Positions 2,259-56,387 of a stretch of 64,000 nucleotides of DNA are shown piece by piece. Source of the DNA: a virus (lineage: Duplodnaviria; Heunggongvirae; Uroviricota; Caudoviricetes). The DNA lies in IMG/VR virus record IMGVR_UViG_3300029610_000357, positions 52,285-116,284 of that record, one strand, 5' to 3'. The notes beneath the pieces are model-generated. The model worked only from the letters and a program-made list of their open reading frames with translations. It searched no databases and had not been told where the DNA came from. Every line of letters starts with the position of its first letter. Position 1 is the stretch's first letter. The position numbers and the translations under genes were made by a program.

Positions 2259-2333
<75 letters not shown>

Positions 2334-2519
2334 GCACAAAAAGAGTACATTGTAACTACCAACAATGTACTCAAACTTAGAAAAGAGGTATAAATTATGA
2401 TTCCTACAAGAAATCTTAATAGCTTTGTAAATCTTTCTGAGGTATGAAACAACAGTAGAAAAGCGCAATAATCAAAACTTCACAAGAAAGGAGATAATAT
2501 GATTCCTCAGAAAGATTAA

Positions 2520-2591
2520 CAGGGATAACTGGATTTGAACCAGTGAATACAGCAGTCAAAGTGCTGTGCCTTACCGCTTGGCGATATCCCT
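2520..2591 (-). tRNA. tRNA-Gln (anticodon UUG)
   Basis: The acceptor AGGGATA/TATCCCT is perfect. The anticodon stem is CAGCA/TGCTG with loop CTTTGAC, and the T-arm is ACTGG-TTCAAAT-CCAGT. Confidence 0.8.
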
Positions 2592-3204
2592 ATATGTATT
2601 TTAATTTTAAAGCAGGTCTTCACCTTACAGTCATTTGTGGAATAGTTTGTTCTGCAACATAGTAGATAAGTCTGAGCTTCGAGGAGCGACCTCTAACTTC
2701 TTACCTAAGTCTAAAAGACCAGTTCTATGACATGATCAATACATGCAATGTCAACCCACCATTCAGAATTAAGTTTTATTGTTATATACTCTATTAGCAT
2801 ATATATTCATTTTGAATTTGAACTTGCCCTTAACTGACTTGAGCGACATACCAGCGACTTTTCTTATACACTGTCTTTTGAACAGCTTCACATCAAACTA
2901 CATTATTTGGCTTTTCCACCTTTTACGTACCTGCCAGAGTACGCATTGAAGTGGATTATTCTCCACAGGAGCGTCTATTGTTGTAGCGAAAAGTTCTGTG
3001 CGTTAACCAGACCAAAATGCTGCACAATATCCATTTGCTTGAGAGTTTCTCTCTTGTCCATATCAGATCACTCCGACATAAAAAGAGACACAAAGAACGT
3101 ATCCGTACAATGTATCTCTCCAATTCGACATATGTGCCTAGAATATCTCTCGGACTCATGGCATTGAGTTTTATAACCGAGTTGCTTATGTTTTAAAATA
3201 CAAA

Positions 3205-3276
3205 CACCCTAAGCTGGATTTGAACCAGCACGAACGGTTTTGGAGACCGTCATTCTACCAACTAAATTATTAGGGC
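3205..3276 (-). tRNA. tRNA-Trp (anticodon CCA)
   Basis: The acceptor is GCCCTAA/TTAGGGT with a G1-U72 pair. The anticodon stem is ACGGT/ACCGT with loop CTCCAAA, and the T-arm is GCTGG-TTCAAAT-CCAGC. Confidence 0.7.
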
Positions 3277-3283
3277 GATATTA

Positions 3284-3357
3284 CTGACATGACAGGACTC
3301 GAACCTGCAACACCAACGTCCGTAGCGTTGTGCTCTGTCCAGTTGAGCTACATGTCA
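3284..3357 (-). tRNA. tRNA-Arg (anticodon ACG)
   Basis: The acceptor is TGACATG/CATGTCA. The D-arm reads GCTC-AACTGGACA-GAGC, the anticodon stem is CAACG/CGTTG with loop CTACGGA, and the T-arm is GCAGG-TTCGAGT-CCTGT. Confidence 0.75.
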
Positions 3358-3571
3358 ATAACGAATATGTATTTACCTCTCATACGTACACACTGGCGAG
3401 ACAATACATATTTCTAAAAAGCAACAGTGTGTAAGTATTGCTTTTCTAGGGCGAACTGAAGTGATGAACTCCATCAGAATATCAGAAGAGGTATACATTC
3501 CAATATCCACCAACCATCAGGGTGTTCGCATATTTTTTGGTTAATCTATCGTATAGTTACTAACCTAATCA

Positions 3572-3655
3572 TCCCTGTTGAGGGAATCGAACCCACTCGT
3601 GACCGAAGCCGCAAAATTTACAGTTTTGCCTGTCTCCTTAGCAGTATAAACAGGG
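3572..3655 (-). tRNA. tRNA-Tyr (anticodon GUA), long variable arm
   Basis: The anticodon stem is CAAAA/TTTTG with loop CTGTAAA, and the T-arm is GTGGG-TTCGATT-CCCTC. The acceptor is CCCTGTT/AACAGGG. The D-arm pairing is irregular, so the exact ends are approximate. Confidence 0.55.
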
Positions 3656-3694
3656 ATATTAGCCCACAAGTCCGAAGAACATTGTAGGACAAAC

Positions 3695-3769
3695 ATCACA
3701 CCAACGAGAGTCGAACTCGTATTGCATCCGTGAAAGGGATGTGTCCTAAAACCATTTAGACGATGGTGC
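3695..3769 (-). tRNA. tRNA-Glu (anticodon UUC)
   Basis: The layout CGCACCA-TC-GTC-TAAATGGTTTTAG-GAC-A-CATCC-CTTTCAC-GGATG-CAAT-ACGAG-TTCGACT-CTCGT-TGGTGTG-A mirrors a canonical bacterial tRNA-Glu. Confidence 0.85.
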
Positions 3770-3775
3770 GATTTA

Positions 3776-3869
3776 GCGTACGGACTGGGCTACGACCCCA
3801 GGATACACATGTTCGTATGTATACAGGATTAGCAATCCTGCGCATTAAACCAGCTCTGCCACCCGTACA
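3776..3869 (-). tRNA. tRNA-Ser (anticodon GCU), long variable arm
   Basis: The acceptor is GTACGGG/TCCGTAC. The D-stem is a 3-bp GCA/TGC stem, the anticodon stem is CAGGA/TCCTG with loop TTGCTAA, and a 22-nt variable hairpin (TATACAT...ATGTGTAT) precedes the T-arm CTGGG-GTCGTAG-CCCAG. Confidence 0.8.
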
Positions 3870-4201: not shown

Positions 4202-4591
4202 TTATTTTACCACATATACTTTACTGTACTTTTTGCCGAATCTCTTGACCTGTGAGTGAGAAGAGAAGTACATGTCGATATGTTTTCCTCTTACTCCGCC
4301 ACCAACGTCTTCCGCTGTATACAGATGTCCATTGATTCTGACCTTAGTACCTAATTTAATTTTTCTCCTATCAACAGAAATGGTTCTGCCTTGTTTTGCT
4401 CTGCGACCTGAAGCAGTTCGGGTTCCCCAACCACCAGAACATGACCGACAACCGCAGTATGCAGTAATCTTGTATGTTCCCAAACATTTAACTTTTTTAT
4501 TTTTCGCAGAGACAGCAGTAGAAGTAGTGAACCCTCCAACTGCCAATAGCATTGCCATTAACAGTGCGATCATTGAAATTTTCTTTTTCAT
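4202..4591 (-). CDS. secreted 3D-domain protein (MltA/YocH-like cell-wall-binding or lytic domain)
   Basis: There is an N-terminal signal peptide (MKKKISMIALLMAMLLAV). The translation then carries ITAYCGCRSCSG, GRTISVD, KLGTKV and AEDVGGGVRGKHIDMYF, which match the 3D-domain signature. Confidence 0.65.
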   Translation of the reverse strand: MKKKISMIALLMAMLLAVGGFTTSTAVSAKNKKVKCLGTYKITAYCGCRSCSGGWGTRTASGRRAKQGRTISVDRRKIKLGTKVRINGHLYTAEDVGGGVRGKHIDMYFSSHSQVKRFGKKYSKVYVVK

Positions 4592-4920: not shown

Positions 4921-5015
4921 CTTATATCCTTCCTTTCATATATCACTATTTTACCACCCCTTCAAAACACTAGGTTTTACCTAGGTTTCTGAGGGGTATT
5001 TAATGTGGTAATTCT
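4921..5015 (-). repeat. copy A of a roughly 95-nt repeated module (hairpin + extended -10-like TGGTAAAAT + SD in minus sense)
   Basis: Copy A is about 80% identical to copy B. The two hairpin arms differ by compensatory changes (CCCCT...AGGGG in A, CCCTGAA...TTCAGGG in B). Confidence 0.6.
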
Positions 5016-5108: not shown

Positions 5109-5203
5109 CCTTATCCTTCCTTCCATATATCACTATTTTACCACCCCCTGAAGAACGTAGGCAGAACCTAGCGTTTTCAGGGTCAATTAATGTGGTAATT
5201 CTT
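5109..5203 (-). repeat. copy B of the roughly 95-nt repeated module
   Basis: Copy B shares CATATATCACTATTTTACCACCCC at the 5' end and ATTAATGTGGTAATTCT at the 3' end with copy A, and the central hairpin co-varies. Confidence 0.6.
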
Positions 5204-5213
5204 TTTGCTGGCC

Positions 5214-6068
5214 TTATTTTTTGTCAGAATTATAGTATTTGGTATATCTATTTAACTGCATTTCACTCTTACAAGAAGTACAATACTGTCTAAGCCGTCC
5301 TTTACGATGCTTTTTCTTTTTTGAGATGTCTCTAAAAGGTTCTCCACAACAGGAGCATACAGAAATCTCAGGATATCCAATAAAGTGAAGGTATCTGTTC
5401 CCAAGATTCTTGAAGTCTGTAATCTCAAGAGCAACATCTCCTGAATCGACAAGAATATCTACAGAGAAGTTTAAGCTATTAACTTTCTTGCTCATTGTTA
5501 TACAATCGCTTCTGAACAGCCTGCCGATTATTTGGCATCTACGTTCTCTTGTACCTACTGTATTACCCAATGAGAATAAATATTTGTAGTCTGTATTCAC
5601 CCAATTATTGTTTTGAGGATTCAGAGCATTATAATACTTGGCCAAGCAAAGAGCAGTGAAGAGAATCTTTTGATCTCTAAGATTCTCTAACCCATTTATG
5701 GTTTCCATTTCAGACTCATAGATCGGCAGTGAATCAATTTCCACAAGAGGATACTTTTTAGCTTTGTGAATGATCTCATCAATGCATGAATACCATTTAG
5801 CTTCTCTGTAGCTCTCACAGGACTCTTTTAAGAACTCATTGATAGTTTTATATACCTGTGCAGGTTCTAAGCCTTTCTCGTGGATGTAATACTTTGCAAG
5901 CAGGGTAGCAGTATATGGGATACTGCTTTCCAACTCTTTTGTTTCTAAAATTTTTTCTACCAGTGTTTTTTCATTCAGTACGATATTAATAACAATCAGC
6001 CTCCTCAAACATAGATGATTCAATTTGTTTAATAGTTTCAATGACGAAAGAATCTCCGTCATATTCAA
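5214..6068 (-). CDS. hypothetical protein
   Basis: A 284-aa ORF with Cys pairs (CSCCGEP, CTSC) near the N-terminus. It overlaps the end of the upstream gene, which is consistent with an operon. Confidence 0.45.
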   Translation of the reverse strand: MNMTEILSSLKLLNKLNHLCLRRLIVINIVLNEKTLVEKILETKELESSIPYTATLLAKYYIHEKGLEPAQVYKTINEFLKESCESYREAKWYSCIDEIIHKAKKYPLVEIDSLPIYESEMETINGLENLRDQKILFTALCLAKYYNALNPQNNNWVNTDYKYLFSLGNTVGTRERRCQIIGRLFRSDCITMSKKVNSLNFSVDILVDSGDVALEITDFKNLGNRYLHFIGYPEISVCSCCGEPFRDISKKKKHRKGRLRQYCTSCKSEMQLNRYTKYYNSDKK

Positions 6069-7128
6069 AATCTCCTGATTCAGCTCTTACAGGATAAGAG
6101 ATCTGGTGATAGTTTCTCTCTAAGAGTCTTTGGACAAGGATGTCTCCAAACATGTCCCATACAAACTGCTTACTCTTGCCATTGGTATAGCAGAGGTCAA
6201 GAAGAATGTCACAAGCTTTCTCAGGATCAGGAACAGCAGTGGCAACAGCTTCTCTGAACAACATGACTCGGTTATTGATGATGTCTGTTACATTTAGTCC
6301 AAAGACACCCCGGCCATTGATTAGAGCATTCAGGGTTTTCATTTTCTTTGAATACTCGCTGTATAACTTCTTAAGAGCATAATAATCATTCTTGTTGTAC
6401 TCATGATCTCTTTTGAGAATGGAGTAATCAAAATCTGTTTGTGTATTCAACTTCTTTAAGTAGCCATCAAACTCATCCTCAAAGAGCTTACAGATTCGAT
6501 TCATTACACAAGGCCCTGTACCTACAGGTAAGAACTTATAGTAGTGATCTAAGAATTCTGCTTCATCCTCTGTGATAGGTTCTGTATCAGCTTTCTTGAG
6601 CAATTCATCAATCGTGCATCCAAACCAGATAATACATTTATCGTTTGAAGCTTTCACATAATTTGTGTAATCCTTTCTCAGGTGAGAGTAAATGTAGATC
6701 ATGAAGTATGGTTTCTTGTCAGCTACGATTCTCTGATTGAATTCTTTTCGCTTACGATCCTTTGATGAGTCTTCAGGATGGATGTTGTTGTCTTTTCTGT
6801 TATACCAGTAAGATGGGATAGGTTTACACACAATGCCCTTCAATTTGTCAATCGAATTTTGTTGGTATAGCTGACCGCAAATGATTCTGTAATCCAGTTC
6901 TTTAAACTCATCACTGTCAGGAGAGTAATGAGACTGTACTTCAAACTGAGAAGTGATGATGTTTGTTGTGAAGCCAATTTCGTCTCCAAAGGCATCCTTG
7001 TAAGCTTTTAAAATGTCTTTTCGTTTAGGGACAATCTTGTTAGCTTTGCGTTGAGCACAAATGATTGATGGAAGAGGACGATTGTTTTCAACAAGTATTC
7101 TATTGTTAGTTGTGAAGAAGAGGTCTCC
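5986..7128 (-). CDS. exon 2 of an intron-split large protein; the junction rebuilds a DFDGD motif (possible YonO/beta-prime-like RNA polymerase)
   Basis: The frame stays open upstream of the listed Met, back to 7128. Exon 2 begins GDLFFTTNN directly after the intron's terminal G. Confidence 0.5.
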   Translation of the reverse strand, partial: GDLFFTTNNRILVENNRPLPSIICAQRKANKIVPKRKDILKAYKDAFGDEIGFTTNIITSQFEVQSHYSPDSDEFKELDYRIICGQLYQQNSIDKLKGIVCKPIPSYWYNRKDNNIHPEDSSKDRKRKEFNQRIVADKKPYFMIYIYSHLRKDYTNYVKASNDKCIIWFGCTIDELLKKADTEPITEDEAEFLDHYYKFLPVGTGPCVMNRICKLFEDEFDGYLKKLNTQTDFDYSILKRDHEYNKNDYYALKKLYSEYSKKMKTLNALINGRGVFGLNVTDIINNRVMLFREAVATAVPDPEKACDILLDLCYTNGKSKQFVWDMFGDILVQRLLERNYHQISYPVRAESGDFEYDGDSFVIETIKQIESSMFEEADCY

Positions 7129-7464
7129 CGATGTACCCTCGGTTTCCCGATATTTATGGAGAAAGGGGACTAGACTATATCATTACACAGCATAGGTCTT
7201 ACACTGTGATGCTCGGCACTTCCCTTGGGGAGTTTCACCCTTTTGGTACTCTACTTGCTACCGATACCGTATTCCTCGAATATCAGTGCTTTGGATAGTC
7301 GTTTGACTTTCAATTTCTGCTTAGCACAGGATTACCACCGGCATTACCCGCTGAGGCTCCCCTGTTAGCATATGCGTTAACTTCCATTTCCTGAAGCTAC
7401 TGTACGTCACATATACACCTTACATTTGTAAGTTCACCGAGTTTTACTTCGACCAAGTAAACTA
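7129..7464 (-). ncRNA. group I self-splicing intron (336 nt, no ORF)
   Basis: P1 pairs the exon end CTTCGAT with the internal guide GTCGAAG 11 nt into the intron. P7-like elements are present (AACGACTAT and GATATAGTCTAGTCC). The 3' end, AAATATC + 16 nt + ATCG, is shared with the dnaE intron. GC content is raised and all three frames carry stops. Confidence 0.7.
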
Positions 7465-9114
7465 ATCGAAGTCGCAACCGTTAAGTGATTCACATGTATT
7501 ATCCCAATCATTGATCACACAAATGGATGGGAGATACTGGAACCAGTATGAAAGCTGCTCATTGTTCTTCACTTTAAGATTGACGATGTTATAATGGCTT
7601 GTCATTGGAGCTCTGAAGCAAGCTACTTCATCAACCTGTCTATCGATCCAATGCTTGTGATACATTTCTCCTGCTTTAAGCAATCCTGTAACTTCAAGTC
7701 CAAACATGGATTGCATGAGAGCATATGGATCACCAGCAACGATTGAATAATTACCTTTCACTTTGATGCGTCCGATCTTAGCATCTTGGATTCGTTTCTT
7801 GATGAGAGAATGAATCTTAGATCGAATGAAAGGATCTTTGATCATCTCAGGTTCAGCTATGAGTGCCTGAATGTATGTAAAAGCATCTGACTGTAAGATG
7901 TTCTTCTCAGTCATATTCTTACCTCGCAGGAAGAGCAGAGTCTTTCTGTAATCCATCCCAAGAATGTCTTTGATCTCTTTTATGGTTGGCTCACAAAGCT
8001 CTCTTATTTGGTCGTCTGTAAGATAATAGCTCTGTAAGAACTGATAGTTAAGATTCCTTTCAGTATCACATTCTTGTTCGGCTGTTTTGGCAAGAGCAAA
8101 GTGATAATCATACTTCTCAATGTTCTCTAAGTAGTCTTCCATAGAGTCATATGCATCCCATAGCTTAAACATAGATGTTGTAAGTATCACCTGAGCGTCT
8201 CTAACGTCCCTAGGATGGCCCCAAGCATCAATAATGGTATAAGTCTTAGCTACGTCCTCTGCAAAGGCTCTAAAGTCCATACAGTGAAGCATACCTTTAC
8301 AGAATGGCCATCCTCTCATGTTGCCAGATGGAAGAGGAGTATCATAATCTCCATTCAGTTCACCATTCCATTGTCTTGCAAGTTCTGGAAGAACTAATCC
8401 TTCTCCATCAGACCCATTGTGTACAAACTCTTGATCATCAAGAAGAGTTACTTCTGGTTCATCTGAGTTTGTATCATCCACATAAAGAGCTTGTCCCTTA
8501 AAGATCGTCTCACAGTCTTGTACAACAATCACTCCTGATGGTGGAGTAACAACTGTAGAAGAAGAGCAGAAGAGTGCTTTGTACGCTCCGAGCTTGTTTG
8601 GTATGATCGGAACTTCTTTATTCCTCCCGGCATCTACTTTCTCACAGAGAGCATCGTATACATTGTCACTGACAAAGATTACAACACTGTTCTTTAAGCC
8701 TCCTGTGGTTCCTAAGAAGAGATTGTAGTGGAGATCATTTACAATGAATCCATGCTTGCTGCAGTAGTCATAATCTTTCTTTGTGTCGAAGACCACTGTG
8801 AGGTAGTCTGTTTGGAATCGACATTTGTACAGATCATTGTAGAGTAGTGAGATAAGTTCTTTGCTTCCTCTGTTGGCTGAAAGCTCTTTGATCTTCTTTC
8901 GGATTCTTTTTGCTCTTATGTCTGAATCATAGTCATGGATCAATGAGTCAATTGTTCTTAATGCTTCAGAACTTGAAAGAGTAATAATGTCGTCTCCATT
9001 CTCCCTCGCTTCATTGAGTGGTAGAGAAAGTTTCCACTTCGCCTTTCTTAATCGGCTGCTGTGTAGTTTGTAAATATATTTCTGACTCGTTTTTTGCTTA
9101 GAAATAATGATCAC
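7465..9114 (-). CDS. exon 1 of the intron-split large protein (550 aa); the in-frame stop lies at the first intron nucleotides
   Basis: The ORF ends ...ESLNGCDFD. The TAG that follows the splice site is the start of the intron. The spliced product would read ...NGCDFDGDLFF, about 930 aa in total. Confidence 0.5.
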
Positions 9115-9347
9115 TCCTTTTTTGATTTTTTATGTGTTGAGTGGAGAGAAGTTTTTGTAATTTTTAGCCTCTCCAAAACTTAACCTCTTAGTATAAAAAT
9201 TTCGGCGTCCATAATTTAAGTAATATTCTTAATGTTACTACGTAACATTAAAAATATTATTAAATCATTTAATTTCTTTTTAATGTTAATTACTATTTAA
9301 TATTTAATTAATACATATCCTTATATTTATATACGGTTTTAAAAAAG

Positions 9348-24054: not shown

Positions 24055-25347
24055 GTGAACGAGATCAATAAAAGGAAATTAGAACTGTTCATGGATGATC
24101 AGCTATGGAGACAAAATATCACACATCAGCAAAGCAAAGGTGTACATAGAGATGTATTAAGAATTGTATGTGATCCAGAATACAAAGCACGGCTTTTAGG
24201 AATGATCTGGGATGGTAATTACAAAATTGCACCTCCGTATGTAGTAGAAATTCCTAAAGACAATGGAAAAGTAAGAGAAGTGTATGTTAATCAGCCAATT
24301 GACAGATTTGTTATGACACAAATCAATTATGTTTATATGCAATTATATGGTCATATGATTCATCCAAGATGTGTGTCTTATCAGAAAGGAATTGGAGTTA
24401 AAAATATCGTAGATGATATTTGTATGGAGCTTAAGAAACATCAAGGAGCTGTTGGGTATAAGGTAGACATTAGTAAGTATTTTGACAGTGTAAGCCGTGA
24501 GGTACTTAATGAAATGATTGATAAAATTGATACAGGAAGTCCTATTGATCAGATTGTAAGAGATTATTATATGGATGATTGTATCATTGATCAGAAAAGA
24601 AATGTTATTGAGAAATACAAAAGTATGACTCAAGGTTGTGCAGTGTCTACATTCTTTGCCAATTGTGTTTTAAGAGATGTAGACGAAGAGTTAAGCAAGA
24701 TGGATATTATTTATTACAGATATTCAGATGATATCTTGATGGTTGGTAAGGATGCAGATAAGGCTTTGAAGATGTTAGGAGAGATGTTAGAAACAAAAGG
24801 ACTTACATTAAATCCCAAAAAGGTAGAAACAGTCAGTACAGATCAATGGTTTACATTCTTAGGAGTGCGAATTAATGGACAGAAGAGAAGTTTTTCTGAA
24901 AAGAGCTTAAAGGAATTTCAGAAACACATTAGAGAATATGTAAATAAGAAAGCAGGAATTGGTAGCGTAAAAGTTGCAATCAGACAAATTAATAAATATC
25001 TGTATTTGAATTTCTTAAGGAATCCGAATGAGTTTGGTTGGGCTGAGTATTTCTTTAGTATTGTGAATGTCGAAGATGATATTAAGACATTAGATATGTG
25101 GATTAAAGATACACTCAGAGGTTTGTATACTGGTAAGAGAAAGGTTGGTGGTCTTGGTGTAAATAAAGTAACTGATGAATGTGGAGTATTAAGAGGGAAA
25201 GGAAAAAACGTAAGTGCAAATCTTGGTAAAACAAGAAGCGATAAAGACATTTTAGAAGAAGCAGGATATATCAGCATGAATGAAATGTATCATCAGTTTA
25301 GATACAGTAAAGAATTGTACAGGGCTTCATTGACGGCTTTATCTTAA
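24055..25347 (+). CDS. reverse transcriptase (orphan RT domain plus a roughly 120-aa C-terminal extension; class unassigned)
   Basis: The RT motifs are readable in order. Motifs 1-2 read PKDNGKVREVYVNQPIDRFV. Motif A is YKVDISKYFDSV, B' is QGCAVSTFFANCVL and C is YYRYSDDILMVG. The region LTLNPKKVE then follows, and after it FLGVRI. GTG start with an AGAGGGTG Shine-Dalgarno sequence. Confidence 0.8.
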   Translation: MNEINKRKLELFMDDQLWRQNITHQQSKGVHRDVLRIVCDPEYKARLLGMIWDGNYKIAPPYVVEIPKDNGKVREVYVNQPIDRFVMTQINYVYMQLYGHMIHPRCVSYQKGIGVKNIVDDICMELKKHQGAVGYKVDISKYFDSVSREVLNEMIDKIDTGSPIDQIVRDYYMDDCIIDQKRNVIEKYKSMTQGCAVSTFFANCVLRDVDEELSKMDIIYYRYSDDILMVGKDADKALKMLGEMLETKGLTLNPKKVETVSTDQWFTFLGVRINGQKRSFSEKSLKEFQKHIREYVNKKAGIGSVKVAIRQINKYLYLNFLRNPNEFGWAEYFFSIVNVEDDIKTLDMWIKDTLRGLYTGKRKVGGLGVNKVTDECGVLRGKGKNVSANLGKTRSDKDILEEAGYISMNEMYHQFRYSKELYRASLTALS

Positions 25348-32481: not shown

Positions 32482-32631
32482 GGGGACATAGCTTAATAGG
32501 TAAAGCAAAACTATATTTTTCCATAAAGAACTTAAAACTAAAATTTTCATATTAAATATAAACATTTTGTACCTCCCTATTGTAATAAAATAACACTTAT
32601 ATTTATGTGGGTTCGAGTCCCACTGTCCCCA
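32482..32631 (+). other. interrupted tRNA-like element: intact acceptor, D-arm and T-arm, separated by about 75 extra AT-rich nt
   Basis: The 5' end GGGGACA-TA-GCTTAATAGGTAAAGC and the 3' end GTGGG-TTCGAGT-CCCAC-TGTCCCC-A give a perfect 7-bp acceptor. About 100 nt sit where a roughly 22-nt anticodon arm is expected, and no anticodon stem is evident. Confidence 0.35.
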
Positions 32632-47291: not shown

Positions 47292-47672
47292 ATGAAAGAA
47301 GCAAAAATAAACATCAGAGTGGTAACAGAAGAGGGGGACTACATTGTCGCTGGAAATGTTAGCACAGATTTTAAATTAGCTGCACAAATAAAACGATTAT
47401 ATAATGAAGTTTTATCTGAAAGCGAATTGGTCAAAGTTAAATATAAAAGTGAGGATGATAGTGTTCTAGTTGAACAGGATTATTATTATCCAACTATTAA
47501 TATAGAAGAGAACATTGTAAGTATATTTGATTCAAGAGGCGGAAAAGATATGTCAATCCAATTGCCCGCAATAACAGATATGATTTTTAAAGAAGGAAAT
47601 GGGCGTTTTGATTATACTATAACATTAAAATTACATAGTGGTAAGATTATTTTTAGTGGAATTTTAGAATAG
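47292..47672 (+). CDS. hypothetical protein
   Basis: A 126-aa ORF preceded by GGAGG. Confidence 0.5.
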   Translation: MKEAKINIRVVTEEGDYIVAGNVSTDFKLAAQIKRLYNEVLSESELVKVKYKSEDDSVLVEQDYYYPTINIEENIVSIFDSRGGKDMSIQLPAITDMIFKEGNGRFDYTITLKLHSGKIIFSGILE

Positions 47673-47884
47673 TCGAGCAGACTTCCCACATTAATTGAAG
47701 CTGAATATCGTAGGCACAGCCTAGTGTTTTATGGGGGTAGTAAAATACTCATATATGCATAGAAGGATAAGGCAACAACAAGCAGTCATGAATTGTTCAT
47801 GGCTGCTTTTGTTATATAAAAATTTATTTTAAAGAAAGGAGACAAAAGAAATGAAAAGGAACAAAGCAAGAGGTTCAGTCCCAA

Positions 47885-54629: not shown

Positions 54630-56039
54630 ATGACAGATTTAGAATTTTATTCATTACACAATCATACTGAATATTCAAATATAAGGTTAATTGATTGTAT
54701 CAATAAGATTCCTATGTTAATCAAAAGAGCGGTTAAATTGGGCATGAAAGGAATTGCGATCACTGATCATGAAACATTAAGTGGTCATATTCAGGCAATG
54801 ATTTATGTCCGTGATGAGAAAAAGAAAGGTAACATTCCCAAGGATTTTAAATTGATTCTTGGGAATGAAATCTATCTAGTCAATGGAACCGCAGATTACA
54901 TAAAGGAAAATTTTAAAGCTGGAGATGGGAAGTTGTTTTATCATTACATTCTTTTAGCAAAGGATGAAATTGGTCATAGACAGCTTAGAGAATTGAGTTC
55001 AAATGCATGGGACAGATCTTTTCAAACAGGAAAAATGACAAGAGTTCCAACTGAGAAATCAGACCTTGAGAAGATCATAAGAAAAGAACCGGGTCATTTG
55101 ATTGCATCGACAGCTTGCTTAGGCGGAGAGCTTCCTACTTTGATTATGCAGATGGAAGAAGCTCAAAGTGAACTGGAAGTATATGAAGCCAAATGTAAAA
55201 TTGATGATTTCGTTCGATGGAACATTGATTTGTTTGGTGAAGATTTCTTTTTTGAAATGCAACCGGGAGCATCTGAAGAACAAGAAAAGGTTAATAAATG
55301 GTTACTTAAATTGTCAAAAGTTTATGGTGTTAAGTGTATCATAACAACCGATTCACATTATTTATCTAAGAATTCTCAGATGATTCATAAAGCGTATTTG
55401 CAAAGTAAAGAGGAAGAAAGAGAAGTAGATGATTTCTATCAGACTACATATTTAATGGAAATTCCAGAAATGTACGATTACATGAAGTACTTTGACGAAG
55501 AAACTATAGCAGAAGCTATCAACAATACAGCGATCATTGGAAACAAGATTAAAGAGTATTCATTAAGTTGTTCTACGATCGTCCCTGAAGCAGAAGTACC
55601 AAAATTTGAAGTAGAAAATTATTTTGAAAAATATTATCAGAGATTTACAACACTGCAGGAATACGCAAATAGCAGCAACATCTATGACAGATATCTGTTG
55701 TACTTAATTGAAAAGGGATATCAGAAGAAAGAAATTCATGCAAAAGTTCGCAGGAATGACTTTACCGAAGAGCAAAAAGTGGAACGAATAGCTATTGAAT
55801 TACAAGAGATGGCATTGGTTACAGAGAAGATTAAGTCAAGTATTTCTTCCTATTATATATCAACCTTAGAACTAATCAATATCATGTGGAAAGAGGGAGA
55901 TAGCTTGGTAGGGGTAGCCAGAGGATCAGTTACTGGTATGTATACAATGTATTTAATTGATTTAATACAAATGAATCCTTTAGATTGGGGATTGCCTCAT
56001 TGGAGACATATTTCCCATGAGAAAGCAGAGTTATCGGAT
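54630..56039 (+). CDS. dnaE: DNA polymerase III alpha (DnaE-type) exon 1 (PHP domain)
   Basis: The N-terminus YSLHNHTEYSNIRLID...GMKGIAITDHETLSG is a PHP domain. ARGSVTGMYTMYLIDLIQMNP aligns with the DnaE GRGSAAGSLV region. The exon ends at a U (codon GAT), which fits a group I 5' splice site. Confidence 0.7.
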
Positions 56040-56387
56040 TTGAAAAAGTCCGCTTATATAGTGATATATATGACAAAATGTGGTGAACCCATAAATATGG
56101 GGTGTGCGTAAGTGCTAACGGTATCAGTTAAATAAGGCAAGGCTCGAATACGCTGACTAAGAGAACCTACGGTCTTGAAAGAGATAGCAGGCAATACCGT
56201 GCTAAGTAAAGAAGTGTAACGACTAAATTGGACAAACTTATAAAACTGTCCTAAGAGGAATAAGGTGAAAGTCCTTATCTGTAGTGCCACACACGAGAAA
56301 TCCTTGTATAAGCAAGCCAATGGATTAACATTGGGTGATGAGATAGTCTAGTCCGTACAGAAATATCACGAAAGTGACGGTAGATCG
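56040..56387 (+). ncRNA. group I intron in dnaE (348 nt, no ORF)
   Basis: P1 pairs the exon end CGGAU with GUCCG 9 nt into the intron. P7-like elements are AACGACTAAAT and GATAGTCTAGTCC. The 3' end AAATATC + 16 nt + ATCG-G matches the first intron. Splicing gives ...HEKAELSD|VDIDSQKNRREQ, which has the same length and pattern as DnaE [20 protein letters not shown]. Confidence 0.7.

What the first reader, a model, noticed from the sequence alone, without database searches (positions are those of the whole stretch)
5986..9114. Group I intron splits a roughly 930-aa gene exactly inside a DFDGD motif (candidate YonO/beta-prime-like RNA polymerase)
The minus-strand ORF 7465-9114 ends NGCDFD and is followed by TAG. 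A 336-nt ORF-less intron follows, with a P1 pairing (exon CUUCGAU with intron GUCGAAG) and P7 elements. The next exon begins GDLFFTTNN, so the spliced product reads NGCDFDGDLFF.

This matches the universally conserved NADFDGD metal-binding motif of double-psi beta-barrel RNA polymerases (beta-prime, YonO, QDE-1-like). Group I introns often target such sites.

I cannot place the rest of the protein by eye, so the RNA polymerase assignment is inference.
Basis: partly seen in the sequence, partly recalled or inferred. Interest (0 to 1): 0.75.

Follow-up and report, generated by a model that had tools for sequence, protein, structure and literature searches.

The report
Self-splicing intron inside phage RNA polymerase gene
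A 336-base self-splicing (group I) intron with no gene of its own cuts a phage RNA polymerase gene in the middle of its metal-binding DFDGD motif; this is a well-supported but fairly ordinary case of a mobile intron sitting in an essential, conserved phage gene.

Summary
On the minus strand, exon 1 (9114-7465) ends NGCDFD and is followed by TAG. A 336-nt insert follows (7464-7129), with stop codons in all three frames. Exon 2 (7128-5986) begins GDLFFTTNN.

Three near-identical phage contigs carry the same 930-aa gene uninterrupted, which fixes the junction.

The spliced protein belongs to the YonO family. BLASTP against SPbeta YonO gives E 3e-29, with DFDGD aligned to YonO's DNDGD. The AlphaFold model (pLDDT 88.5) best matches the two-barrel polymerases QDE-1 and RDR2.

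The insert is an IA-type group I intron:
- P1 has a U·G pair at the splice site, and the last base is G.
- P7 is formed by the conserved R and S elements, and P7.1 and P7.2 are present.
- Across 11 same-site introns, 93.5% of cells pair and 52 of 86 pairs show compensatory changes.
- It scores only 22 bits against Rfam RF00028 (cut-off 50).

Relatives carry an HNH homing endonuclease in the P6 loop; the window copy lacks it. Intron presence is linked to a 450-nt exon tract that is 16-18% divergent, against 2% elsewhere, which looks like co-conversion during homing.

Verdict: new member of a known kind, moderate interest. Splicing itself has not been tested.

The parts
7465..9114 (-). Exon 1 of the YonO-like RNA polymerase gene (codons 1-550; ends ...NGCDFD)
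   Evidence: ORF list and translation. PHROG phrog_25339 covers residues 4-550 at E 4e-175. 97% identical to the intron-less P0001.
7129..7464 (-). Group I intron, 336 nt, IA type, with no ORF. It begins UAG (an in-frame stop) and ends with the terminal G at 7129.
   Evidence: Stops in all frames. Rfam RF00028 full-length alignment, 22.2 bits. Absent from L008, L133 and L134. Covariation-supported fold.
5986..7128 (-). Exon 2 (codons 551-930, begins GDLFFTTNN; stop at 5988-5986)
   Evidence: Translation. phrog_35857 covers residues 572-913 at E 1e-62. No in-frame start codon before codon 96 of the exon, yet the sequence is under purifying selection.
7465..7473 (-). Codons D548-F549-D550: the first two catalytic aspartates, on the exon 1 side of the junction
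   Evidence: Aligned to YonO D-N-D of DNDGD. D548 and D550 are invariant in 60 homologues.
7123..7128 (-). Codons G551-D552: the third catalytic aspartate, on the exon 2 side
   Evidence: D552 is invariant. The motif is contiguous DHDGD or DFDGD in intron-less homologues.
7606..7614 (-). Codons R501-A502-P503 (the RxP motif of two-barrel polymerases)
   Evidence: Invariant in alignment A2. [quoted passage not shown]
7446..7472 (-). P1: exon ACUUCGAU (7472-7465) pairs with the internal guide GUCGAAGU (7453-7446), with U7465·G7453 at the 5' splice site
   Evidence: Read from the sequence. Exon and guide change together in relatives: CUAUGAU/GUCAUAG in L021 and AAGGAU/GUCCUU in L034. Helix 1 has 4 of 8 pairs with compensatory change.
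7436..7441 (-). P3, 5' strand (CUCGGU)
   Evidence: Pairs with 7217-7212. RNAalifold and pair counts give 100% paired and 4 of 6 pairs compensatory. Other family members have UUGUGU/ACACAA, GUGCGU/GCGCAC and ACUGGU/GCCAGU.
7212..7217 (-). P3, 3' strand (GCCGAG)
   Evidence: As for the 5' strand.
7368..7432 (-). Two hairpins between P3 and P4: 7432-7419 and 7416-7368. They lie in P3.1/P3.2-like positions, and there is no P2.
   Evidence: Helices 3-6: 91-100% paired, 15 of 20 pairs compensatory. P3.1 is listed as an optional group I element in PMC3873408; the names used here are my assignment.
7306..7365 (-). P4-P5-P6 domain. The P6 loop, around 7321/7320, is where relatives carry the HNH endonuclease ORF.
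   Evidence: Helices 7-11. Alignment with L063 and L013 shows a 565-nt insertion exactly here.
7296..7300 (-). P7, 5' strand (GACUA, inside the R element AACGACUA)
   Evidence: Pairs with UAGUC at 7177-7173. Helix 12 is 96% paired and essentially invariant. The R and S elements are as defined in PMC3984707.
7173..7177 (-). P7, 3' strand (UAGUC, inside the S element GAUAUAGUCUAGUCCC at 7181-7166)
   Evidence: Exact pattern match at 7166-7181. The same motif occurs in at least 118 IMG/VR loci.
7223..7289 (-). P7.1 (7289-7257) and P7.2 (7246-7223), the peripheral hairpins typical of subgroup IA
   Evidence: Helices 13-17: 80-100% paired, 13 of 17 pairs compensatory.
7186..7208 (-). P8 hairpin
   Evidence: Helices 18-19: all 6 pairs show compensatory change.
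7136..7168 (-). P9 (CCC/GGG) enclosing a hairpin capped by a GAAA tetraloop (UCGG-GAAA-CCGA)
   Evidence: Helices 20-21: 100% paired. Phage c-st has CAUG-GAAA-CAUG at the same place.
5214..6068 (-). Conserved downstream partner ORF (longest ORF 284 aa; probable start near 6023). It overlaps the polymerase stop codon and has CxxC...CxxC at its C-terminus.
   Evidence: BLASTP to c-st CST177 at E 3e-22, and to the equivalent genes of BUCT082 and PMBT24. The same gene order is seen in L008, L009 and L012. phrog_30716. Whether it is part of the enzyme is not shown.

Best explanation
The region encodes one 930-aa YonO-family single-chain, two-barrel RNA polymerase. Its gene is interrupted by a 336-nt IA-type group I intron that has no ORF. 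The intron sits between the second aspartate codon and the glycine codon of the catalytic DFDGD motif.

Inferred mechanism:
1. The pre-mRNA folds into the P1-P9 ribozyme.
2. A free guanosine bound in P7 attacks after U7465, which is held in a U·G pair in P1.
3. The terminal G7129 then takes the guanosine site, and the exons are ligated.
4. This recreates GAU|GGA and an mRNA that encodes the intact metal-binding triad.

Unspliced RNA would be translated only to the UAG that opens the intron. That would give a 550-aa fragment lacking the third aspartate.

The intron is a mobile element. Sister copies at the same site carry an HNH (HNH_3 + NUMOD4) homing endonuclease in the P6 loop. The window copy is the endonuclease-free form.

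Shown here: the gene structure, the protein family and fold, the conserved RNA structure, and the population pattern. Inferred: splicing itself, the polymerase activity, and the homing mechanism.
For: Junction and gene:
- Intron-less alleles L008, L133 and L134 (97-98% protein identity) read straight through the junction.
- PMBT24 also has the motif uninterrupted.
- Exon 2 has no start codon for 95 codons, yet shows 48 changed codons and only 9 amino-acid changes.

Protein:
- YonO BLASTP at E 3e-29, with DFDGD aligned to DNDGD.
- PF05183 in homologues.
- AlphaFold model with pLDDT 88.5. Foldseek finds RDR2 and QDE-1 at E down to 8e-17.
- R501/A502/P503 and D548/D550/D552 are invariant.
- The YonO aspartate triad is essential for catalysis (PMC5467207).

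RNA:
- The full-length RF00028 alignment places P1, P4-P6, P8 and P9.
- RNAalifold recovers P1, P3, P4-P6, P8 and P9; 39 of 73 pairs are compensatory.
- My P1-P9 model on 11 same-site introns gives 93.5% of cells paired and 52 of 86 pairs compensatory, with a covariation score of 0.467. Structures slid by 1-3 columns score 0.08-0.09, and none of 500 shuffles reaches the observed values.
- The P1 guide sequence changes together with the exon codon: F/UUC, Y/UAU, K/AAG.

Mobility:
- HNH_3 ORFs lie in the introns of L009-L011 and L013.
- L063 is a 99% identical phage whose intron equals the window intron plus a 565-nt insertion carrying an HNH_3/NUMOD4 ORF.
- All intron-containing alleles differ from all three intron-less alleles by 16-18% in a 450-nt tract (-50 to +400 from the junction), against about 2% elsewhere.
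Against: - No RNA data: splicing is inferred only.
- Rfam RF00028 gives 22.2 bits, below the gathering score of 50. The E-value is 0.0027 for an 801-nt search and 0.22 for the whole window.
- The single-sequence minimum-free-energy z-score is only -1.71.
- Pfam finds nothing in the window protein itself.
- A profile of the family finds no PDB sequence, so the link to QDE-1 and RDR2 rests on a predicted structure.
- P10 is weak, 3 bp at best by eye.
- The intron has no endonuclease, and no homologue of it is present in the window, so it may now be immobile.
- The covariation alignment contains several close relatives. The shuffle control therefore overstates significance; the slide control is the fairer comparison.
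Confidence: 0.9

Rival explanations
1. The gene really is split into two separately translated polypeptides (N-terminal 550 aa and a C-terminal fragment) that assemble into the enzyme. The spacer is not removed from the RNA.
For: Public annotations treat the halves as separate genes (c-st CST179 and CST178; CB473 phages). PHROGs has separate families for each half. Split polymerase subunits are known in jumbo phages (PMC2919709).
Against: Exon 2 has no in-frame ATG/GTG/TTG for 95 codons, yet those codons are under purifying selection. The break falls inside the five-residue metal-binding loop. Intron-less alleles exist at 97-98% identity. The spacer has a conserved group I fold with compensatory changes.
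Confidence: 0.03
2. The insert is a decayed group I intron that no longer splices, so the polymerase gene is a pseudogene in this phage.
For: It has lost, or never had, the homing endonuclease. Its Rfam score is below threshold. The classical homing cycle predicts decay after fixation (my own knowledge: Goddard and Burt 1999).
Against: The ribozyme core is almost base-for-base identical to that of the endonuclease-bearing L063 copy. All core helices are intact, and substitutions among relatives are compensatory. Both exons keep open frames with mostly synonymous change. At least seven other near-identical contigs carry the same ORF-less intron. A YonO-type polymerase transcribes late genes in SPbeta (PMC5467207), so it is probably essential here too.
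Confidence: 0.05
3. The insert is some other kind of intervening element: a group II intron, an intein, translational bypassing, or an assembly artefact.
For: None specific. These are the other generic ways to interrupt a phage gene.
Against: It cannot be an intein, because all frames contain stops. It is too short for a group II intron and no group II match appeared in Rfam. At 336 nt it is far beyond known bypass gaps (T4 gene 60 skips 50 nt; my own knowledge). The same insert is found in many independent assemblies.
Confidence: 0.01

Closest known systems
YonO of Bacillus phage SPbeta, a single-chain two-barrel DNA-dependent RNA polymerase (Forrest et al. 2017, PMC5467207)
   Same: Homologous by sequence (BLASTP E 3e-29). 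Shares the DxDGD triad, which is essential for YonO catalysis. Both are encoded in large phages of Firmicutes, about 130 kb.
   Different: Only 28% identical over residues 122-609. The window protein is 930 aa against 839 aa. It is followed by a conserved partner ORF of about 270 aa that c-st annotators call a YonO C-terminal homologue. yonO itself is uninterrupted. Activity of the window protein has not been tested.
PhiPA3 gp210 intron in the virion RNAP beta-like subunit gene (Birkholz et al. 2024, PMC11620839)
   Same: A group I intron with an HNH endonuclease, in a phage two-barrel RNA polymerase gene, inserted right next to conserved catalytic-site aspartates.
   Different: That intron is in the beta-like subunit of a multisubunit polymerase of a Pseudomonas jumbo phage. 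This one is in the beta'-like DxDGD loop of a single-chain YonO-type enzyme, and the window copy has no endonuclease. No competition phenotype has been tested here.
Classical phage IA-type introns (T4 td/nrdB/sunY; SPO1/SP82 DNA polymerase introns with I-HmuI/II; Bastillevirinae introns, PMC11878797)
   Same: R and S core elements, P7.1 and P7.2, the ORF in a peripheral loop, an HNH nicking-type endonuclease family, insertion in conserved codons of essential genes, and co-conversion of flanking exon sequence (SPO1 and T4 details are from my own knowledge).
   Different: There is no P2. Instead, two hairpins lie between P3 and P4. The intron scores below Rfam's gathering threshold. The host gene family is new for introns as far as the searchable literature shows.
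Clostridium phage c-st CST179/CST178 and Enterocloster phage CB473P3 genes 00001-00005
   Same: A homologous intron at exactly the same codon position (DMD|GD and DFD|GD) in a homologous polymerase.
   Different: In those records the halves are annotated as separate hypothetical proteins and no intron is annotated. Protein identity to the window is only 38%. CB473P3 has a second insertion after QQNELD.
QDE-1 / RDR2 eukaryotic RNA-dependent RNA polymerases (PDB 2J7N, 7W82, 7ROZ)
   Same: Best structural matches of the predicted model, over about 900 aligned columns, TM about 0.45-0.5. Same Pfam family in homologues (PF05183).
   Different: 11-14% sequence identity. No sequence-level match to PDB chains, even with a profile. 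By analogy with YonO the template is expected to be DNA.

Membership tests
Group I intron | P1 helix between the end of the 5' exon and an internal guide sequence, with U·G at the 5' splice site | tested here: met
   ACUUCGAU pairs with GUCGAAGU, with U7465·G7453. The guide changes together with the exon in L021 and L034. Helix 1 is 94% paired.
Group I intron | The intron ends with a guanosine (omega-G) immediately before the 3' exon | tested here: met
   G7129 precedes GGAGAC. All 12 same-site introns end in G. The reading frame and the intron-less alleles allow only this junction.
Group I intron | Conserved core: P3-P8 and P4-P6 domains, with P7 formed by the R and S elements and pseudoknotted with P3 | tested here: met
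   R is AACGACUA and S is GAUAUAGUCUAGUCC. P3, P4, P5, P6, P7, P8 and P9 are all supported: 93.5% of cells paired and 52 of 86 pairs compensatory, against about 37% paired in the slide controls. P3 covaries across the wider family.
Group I intron | Score at or above the Rfam RF00028 gathering cut-off (an operational criterion, not a structural definition) | tested here: not met
   22.2 bits against 50. The E-value is 0.0027 for a local search and 0.22 for the whole window. Large insertions (the P3.1/P3.2-like hairpins, P7.1 and P7.2) fall outside the model. PMC11878797 states that Rfam and GISSD models under-detect phage introns.
Group I intron | Guanosine-dependent self-splicing | not testable with these tools
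   Needs in-vitro transcription with GTP, or RNA from infected cells.
Group I intron, subgroup IA | Peripheral P7.1 and P7.2 between P7 and the 3' strand of P3 | tested here: met
   Hairpins at 7289-7257 and 7246-7223, with 13 of 17 pairs compensatory. Assignment to IA1, IA2 or IA3 was not attempted.
Mobile (homing) group I intron | Intron-encoded homing endonuclease | tested here: not met
   The window intron has no ORF, and there is no homologue of the relatives' HNH protein anywhere in the window. Same-site relatives L063, L013, L009, L034 and L007 do encode HNH_3/NUMOD4 proteins.
Mobile (homing) group I intron | Both intron-containing and intron-less alleles exist, with co-converted flanking exon sequence | tested here: met
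   Three intron-less and at least eight intron-containing alleles occur at 97-99% protein identity. A 450-nt tract at the junction is 16-18% divergent, against 2% elsewhere.
YonO-family / two-barrel RNA polymerase | Significant sequence similarity to YonO | tested here: met
   BLASTP E 3e-29; tblastn to 26 Bacillus SPbeta-like phage records.
YonO-family / two-barrel RNA polymerase | DxDGD metal-binding aspartate triad in the beta'-like barrel | tested here: met
   D548-F-D550-G-D552 only after joining the exons. Aligned to YonO DNDGD. Invariant in 60 homologues.
YonO-family / two-barrel RNA polymerase | The other invariant two-barrel residues (RxP upstream of the triad; Asp and Lys residues of the beta-like barrel) | tested here: inconclusive
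   R501-A-P503, D236, R267 and K273-G274 are invariant or nearly so, and K273 aligns with a YonO lysine. Their equivalence to Rpb1 R446/P448 and Rpb2 D837/K979/K987 (PMC2919709) is inferred, not shown by structural superposition.
YonO-family / two-barrel RNA polymerase | Two double-psi beta-barrel fold | tested here: met
   AlphaFold model with pLDDT 88.5. The top 21 PDB matches are RDR2 and QDE-1 at probability 1.0, followed weakly by beta' chains. Prediction only.
YonO-family / two-barrel RNA polymerase | Pfam PF05183 (RdRP) match | tested here: inconclusive
   The window protein has no Pfam hit at E<=1. Homologue P0008 (50% identical) scores 52.5 bits against a cut-off of 23.8, and many homologues carry PF05183.
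YonO-family / two-barrel RNA polymerase | Template-dependent RNA synthesis | not testable with these tools
   Needs purified protein.

The most novel reading that the evidence does not exclude
This is one member of a large, so far undescribed lineage of IA-type group I introns. The lineage lacks P2, has two hairpins between P3 and P4, and is invisible to Rfam at its curated threshold. It has repeatedly colonised catalytic-site codons of the YonO-type RNA polymerase and of the replicative DNA polymerase in phages of gut Clostridia. Its HNH-bearing forms would act as weapons between co-infecting phages, as shown for PhiPA3 gp210. Splicing would also set the timing of phage-polymerase-dependent late transcription.
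Probability: 0.25. Interest if true: 0.6.

Novelty: new member of a known kind. Interest (0 to 1): 0.4.

Why it matters
1. Annotation. The two halves of this polymerase are filed as separate proteins of unknown function in public phage records (c-st, the CB473 phages) and in two PHROG families. Recognising the intron restores one 930-aa enzyme and shows that these phages encode their own YonO-type RNA polymerase.

2. A natural series for studying homing. Near-identical phages from the same metagenome study carry the intron-less allele, the intron with endonuclease, and the intron without endonuclease. A sharp co-conversion tract marks the boundary. This gives ready material for testing homing and inter-phage competition at a polymerase active site.

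3. Detection. The intron family is common in viral contigs (at least 118 IMG/VR loci with one exact core motif) but falls below Rfam's threshold. A dedicated covariance model would recover many split phage genes.

None of this changes how group I introns or two-barrel polymerases are understood.

Tried and rejected
- Rfam alone was not decisive: 22 bits, with E 0.22 for the whole window.
- Pfam on the window protein found nothing. phmmer and a family profile against PDB sequences found nothing useful.
- Megablast of the region against GenBank phages found no match.
- The single-sequence fold gave a weak z-score of -1.71.
- I first assigned P3 to AUGCU/AGCAU next to P4 and P8, and tried several other pairings by eye. 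These were not conserved in L021, L034 or L007. RNAalifold and the wider family showed that the real P3 is CUCGGU/GCCGAG.
- I looked for the donor of the co-converted tract among L012, L013 and L009. All are about 73-74% identical to both allele types, so the donor was not identified.
- I searched IMG/VR for an intron-less allele carrying the intron-type flanks, which would indicate precise intron loss. None was found.
- I looked for a free-standing copy of the HNH endonuclease in the window. None was found.
- The one genome-contig scan gave only a 45% identical relative in a Roseburia MAG, so the host is only loosely indicated.
- I did not build a covariance model, because a model of about 340 positions would exceed the calibration limit.
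- The paper on SPO1/SP82 homing (PMC421625) is not held in the library.

Full report
**1. Observation**

On the minus strand, the ORF 9114-7465 ends ...CESLNGCDFD. The next triplet is TAG. The following 336 nt (7464-7129) have stop codons in all three frames. From 7128 the frame GGA GAC CTC... (GDLFFTTNN...) stays open to the stop at 5988-5986. Joining 7465 to 7128 gives a 930-aa product that reads ...NGCDFDGDLFFTTNN....

**2. The junction is fixed by intron-less alleles**

A protein search returned P0001: 930 aa, 97% identical, covering 100% of the query, and uninterrupted.
- Its contig L008 is collinear with the window on both sides and simply lacks the 336 nt.
- Two further intron-less contigs, L133 and L134, were found in IMG/VR.
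- The more distant Enterocloster phage PMBT24 also reads NGCDFDGDAIYSTNN without interruption.
- Exon 2 has no in-frame ATG/GTG/TTG before its codon 96. Yet in those 95 codons, 48 codons differ from L008 and only 9 amino acids change. This stretch is therefore translated in that frame, which requires joining to exon 1.

**3. What the protein is**

Sequence searches:
- Pfam gives no hit for the window protein, and phmmer against PDB sequences gives nothing meaningful.
- PHROGs has one family for each half (phrog_25339 for residues 4-550; phrog_35857 for residues 572-913) and one for the whole protein (phrog_8308). There is also a weak hit to an 'RNA-dependent RNA polymerase' family across the motif.
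- tblastn against GenBank phages finds Clostridium phage c-st, six Enterocloster phages, Bacillus phage BUCT082 and 26 Bacillus SPbeta-like phage records.
- BLASTP against SPbeta YonO gives E 3e-29 over residues 122-609. CDFDGD aligns to YonO FDNDGD.

What is known about YonO: it is a characterised single-chain DNA-dependent RNA polymerase. Its aspartate triad is required for catalysis, and it transcribes the late genes of SPbeta (PMC5467207).

Further support:
- Many homologues carry Pfam PF05183 (RdRP, the QDE-1 family). P0008, 50% identical, scores 52.5 bits against a cut-off of 23.8.
- In a 60-sequence alignment, R501-A-P503, N545, G546, D548, D550 and D552 are invariant.
- An AlphaFold model built on that alignment has mean pLDDT 88.5 and pTM 0.85.
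- Its 21 best Foldseek matches in the PDB are all RDR2 or QDE-1 (E 8e-17 to 3e-12, probability 1.0, TM about 0.45-0.5). Bacterial RNAP beta' chains follow weakly.

**4. What the insert is**

Rfam's group I model aligns end to end (7474-7150) but scores only 22.2 bits against a gathering score of 50. The E-value is 0.0027 in an 801-nt search and 0.22 for the whole window. On its own this is not proof. The comparative evidence is.

Homologous inserts sit at exactly the same codon position (after DxD, before GD) in the following sequences:

| Sequence | Insert length |
|---|---|
| L012 | 354 nt, no ORF |
| L070 | 343 nt |
| L097 | 337 nt |
| L021 | 409 nt |
| c-st | 317 nt |
| CB473P3 | 433 nt |
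| L013, L009, L063, L034, L007 | about 900-950 nt, with an ORF |

RNAalifold on 11 of them recovers P1, P3, P4-P6, P8 and P9, with 39 of 73 pairs showing compensatory change.

I then wrote a full model and counted pairs on the same alignment.
- The model contains: P1; P3; two hairpins between P3 and P4; P4, P5, P5a, P6 and P6a; P7 as a pseudoknot; P7.1; P7.2; P8; and P9 plus a GAAA-capped hairpin.
- 93.5% of cells are paired, and 52 of 86 pairs have changes on both sides.
- The covariation score is 0.467, against 0.08-0.09 for structures slid by 1-3 columns. None of 500 shuffles reaches the observed values.

Three details matter:
- **P1.** Exon ACUUCGAU pairs with GUCGAAGU, with U·G at the splice site. 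The guide sequence tracks the variable middle codon of DxD: UUC with GAA here, UAU with AUA in L021, and AAG with CUU in L034.
- **P3.** It is CUCGGU (7441-7436) with GCCGAG (7217-7212). In more distant family members in other genes the same two positions read UUGUGU/ACACAA, GUGCGU/GCGCAC, ACUGGU/GCCAGU and CACGGU/GCCGUG.
- **P7.** It is formed by the classical R (AACGACUA) and S (GAUAUAGUCUAGUCC) elements. The intron ends with G7129.

P7.1 and P7.2 place the intron in subgroup IA. It has no P2. The two hairpins between P3 and P4 correspond to the optional 'P3.1'-type elements mentioned in PMC3873408; that naming is my assignment. P10 is weak, about 3 bp by eye. The single-sequence minimum-free-energy z-score is unremarkable at -1.71.

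**5. Mobility**

In L009-L011 and L013 the intron contains a 157-171-aa ORF with Pfam HNH_3.

L063 comes from a phage whose polymerase exons are 99.6% and 97.6% identical to the window. Its intron is virtually base-for-base the window intron plus a 565-nt insertion in the P6 loop. That insertion encodes a 171-aa HNH_3 + NUMOD4 protein. The window intron is thus the endonuclease-free form. No homologue of the endonuclease lies elsewhere in the window.

Exon comparison gives a sharp picture:
- Outside a 450-nt tract, all alleles, with or without the intron, differ by about 2%.
- Inside the tract (about -50 to +400 nt from the junction), the three intron-less alleles differ from every intron-containing allele by 16-18%, while differing from each other by only 1-3%.
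- Within the tract the intron-containing alleles fall into two types that are 9-10% apart.

This is the signature of exon co-conversion accompanying homing, probably more than once. The donor was not found. The upstream part of the tract includes the codons that form P1. This explains why the x of DxD is F in intron-bearing alleles and H in intron-less ones.

An intron-less allele with intron-type flanks was not found in IMG/VR.

**6. Distribution**

- 22 of them contain a YonO-like gene, with insertions at the DxD|GD site and at other sites around residues 564-648.
- The rest of these loci show no YonO-like match, so the motif there lies outside such a gene.
- The window itself has a second member in its DNA polymerase gene (see section 10).
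- The closest cultured relatives infect Clostridium botulinum and Enterocloster bolteae.
- The only hit in the bacterial genome collection is a Roseburia MAG. The host is therefore probably a gut member of the Clostridia; this is an inference.

**7. Mechanism (inferred)**

Transcription gives a pre-mRNA in which a ribosome would stop at the UAG that opens the intron. The ribozyme folds. Exogenous guanosine bound at P7 attacks the phosphodiester bond after U7465. G7129 then occupies the guanosine site, and the freed 3'-OH of exon 1 attacks after G7129. This ligates GAU to GGA. Only the ligated mRNA encodes D548-F-D550-G-D552 on one chain.

By analogy with YonO, the enzyme would transcribe phage late genes. 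It may work together with the conserved ORF immediately downstream (5214-6068).

Not shown here: splicing, enzyme activity, any role for the partner ORF, and whether the ORF-less intron can still move, for example with an endonuclease supplied by a co-infecting relative.

**8. Rival explanations**

- **A truly split, two-polypeptide enzyme.** Contradicted by the missing start codon with purifying selection, by the break lying inside the metal-binding loop, and by the conserved ribozyme fold.
- **A dead intron and a pseudogene.** Contradicted by the intact core with compensatory substitutions, by near-identity to the endonuclease-bearing copy, by open exons under selection, and by several independent contigs with the same arrangement.
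- **Intein, group II intron, translational bypass or assembly artefact.** Excluded by stop codons in all frames, by size, by the absence of other Rfam matches, and by recurrence in independent assemblies.

**9. Comparison with what is known, and novelty**

- Group I introns in conserved codons of essential phage genes are classical (PMC3984707).
- Introns in phage two-barrel polymerase genes are already known: 201phi2-1 gp273/274 (PMC2919709) and PhiPA3 gp210/211. In PhiPA3 an HNH-bearing intron lies right after two conserved aspartates of the beta-like subunit and serves in inter-phage competition (PMC11620839).
- A recent survey stresses that phage IA introns are diverse and under-detected by the Rfam and GISSD models (PMC11878797).
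- A full-text search for YonO together with 'intron' found no relevant paper.
- The public records of c-st and the CB473 phages annotate the halves as separate proteins.

What is new is the host gene family, the exact site, and the recognition that this intron lineage is common but sub-threshold. I file it as a new member of a known kind, with moderate interest.

**10. Seen in passing**

- A second ORF-less intron of the same family splits the DNA polymerase gene at 56040-56387.
- A ROOL RNA lies inside the tRNA cluster.
- An odd 150-nt tRNA-like element lies at 32482-32631.
- There is a reverse-transcriptase-like ORF at 24055-25347.
- A repeat of about 90-120 nt is present in three copies.

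Details are in the list of things noticed in passing.

Noticed in passing
window 54630-58961 (+); intron 56040-56387: A second ORF-less group I intron of the same family splits the DNA polymerase gene (phrog_405). Exon 1 is 54630-56039 (ends ...AELSD), the intron is 348 nt, and exon 2 is 56388-58961 (begins VDIDSQ). P1 is CGGAU/GUCCG, P3 is UGUGGU/GCCACA, R is GUAACGACUA, S is GAGAUAGUCUAGUCC, and the last base G is at 56387. Rfam RF00028 scores 18.1 bits, E 0.039 in a local search.
   Followed up: partly
window 5214-6068 (-): The ORF overlapping the polymerase stop codon is a conserved partner of YonO-like genes. It matches c-st CST177 (28% identity, E 3e-22), BUCT082 and PMBT24, belongs to phrog_30716, and keeps the same position in L008, L009 and L012. 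It ends in a CxxC...CxxC motif and matches YonO residues 782-819 only weakly (E 0.036). It may be a separate C-terminal module or subunit of the polymerase.
   Followed up: partly
window 2594-3205 (-), within 2262-3868: A ROOL RNA (RF03087, 306 bits) is embedded in a cluster of seven tRNA genes: Thr, Gln, Trp, Arg, Tyr, Glu and Ser.
   Followed up: no
window 32482-32631 (+): Rfam tRNA match (42.5 bits, above the cut-off) that spans 150 nt. The acceptor, D and T arms are canonical, but a 93-nt AU-rich stretch replaces the 15-nt anticodon arm. ARAGORN does not call it. It could be an interrupted tRNA or a tRNA-like element; unexplained.
   Followed up: partly
window 24055-25347 (+): A 430-aa ORF matches a PHROG reverse-transcriptase family (phrog_1423, E 9e-30). 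Its type (DGR, retron, group II intron or other) was not determined.
   Followed up: no
window 4925-5015 and 5112-5202 (-), 47648-47769 (+): Three copies of an intergenic repeat of about 90-120 nt. All match L008 13577-13854 at 75-81% identity. Function unknown.
   Followed up: no
window 9105-9125 (-): The Shine-Dalgarno GGAG directly abuts the annotated GTG start at 9114, with zero spacing. Translation may really start at ATT 9108 or 9105. Relatives are annotated with different N-termini.
   Followed up: no
L003 2027-3121; L004 3060-3494; L032, L075, L046, L093: Other YonO-like genes carry insertions at further sites. One lies after QQNELD (residue 644 of the window protein), with a 250-aa ORF in CB473P1. 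Others lie around residues 564-632. At least some belong to the same intron family. The window gene is uninterrupted at these sites.
   Followed up: partly
window 4202-4591 (-): A small secreted-looking protein with a Pfam 3D domain (E 5e-13). It is conserved downstream of the polymerase module in L008 and L009.
   Followed up: no
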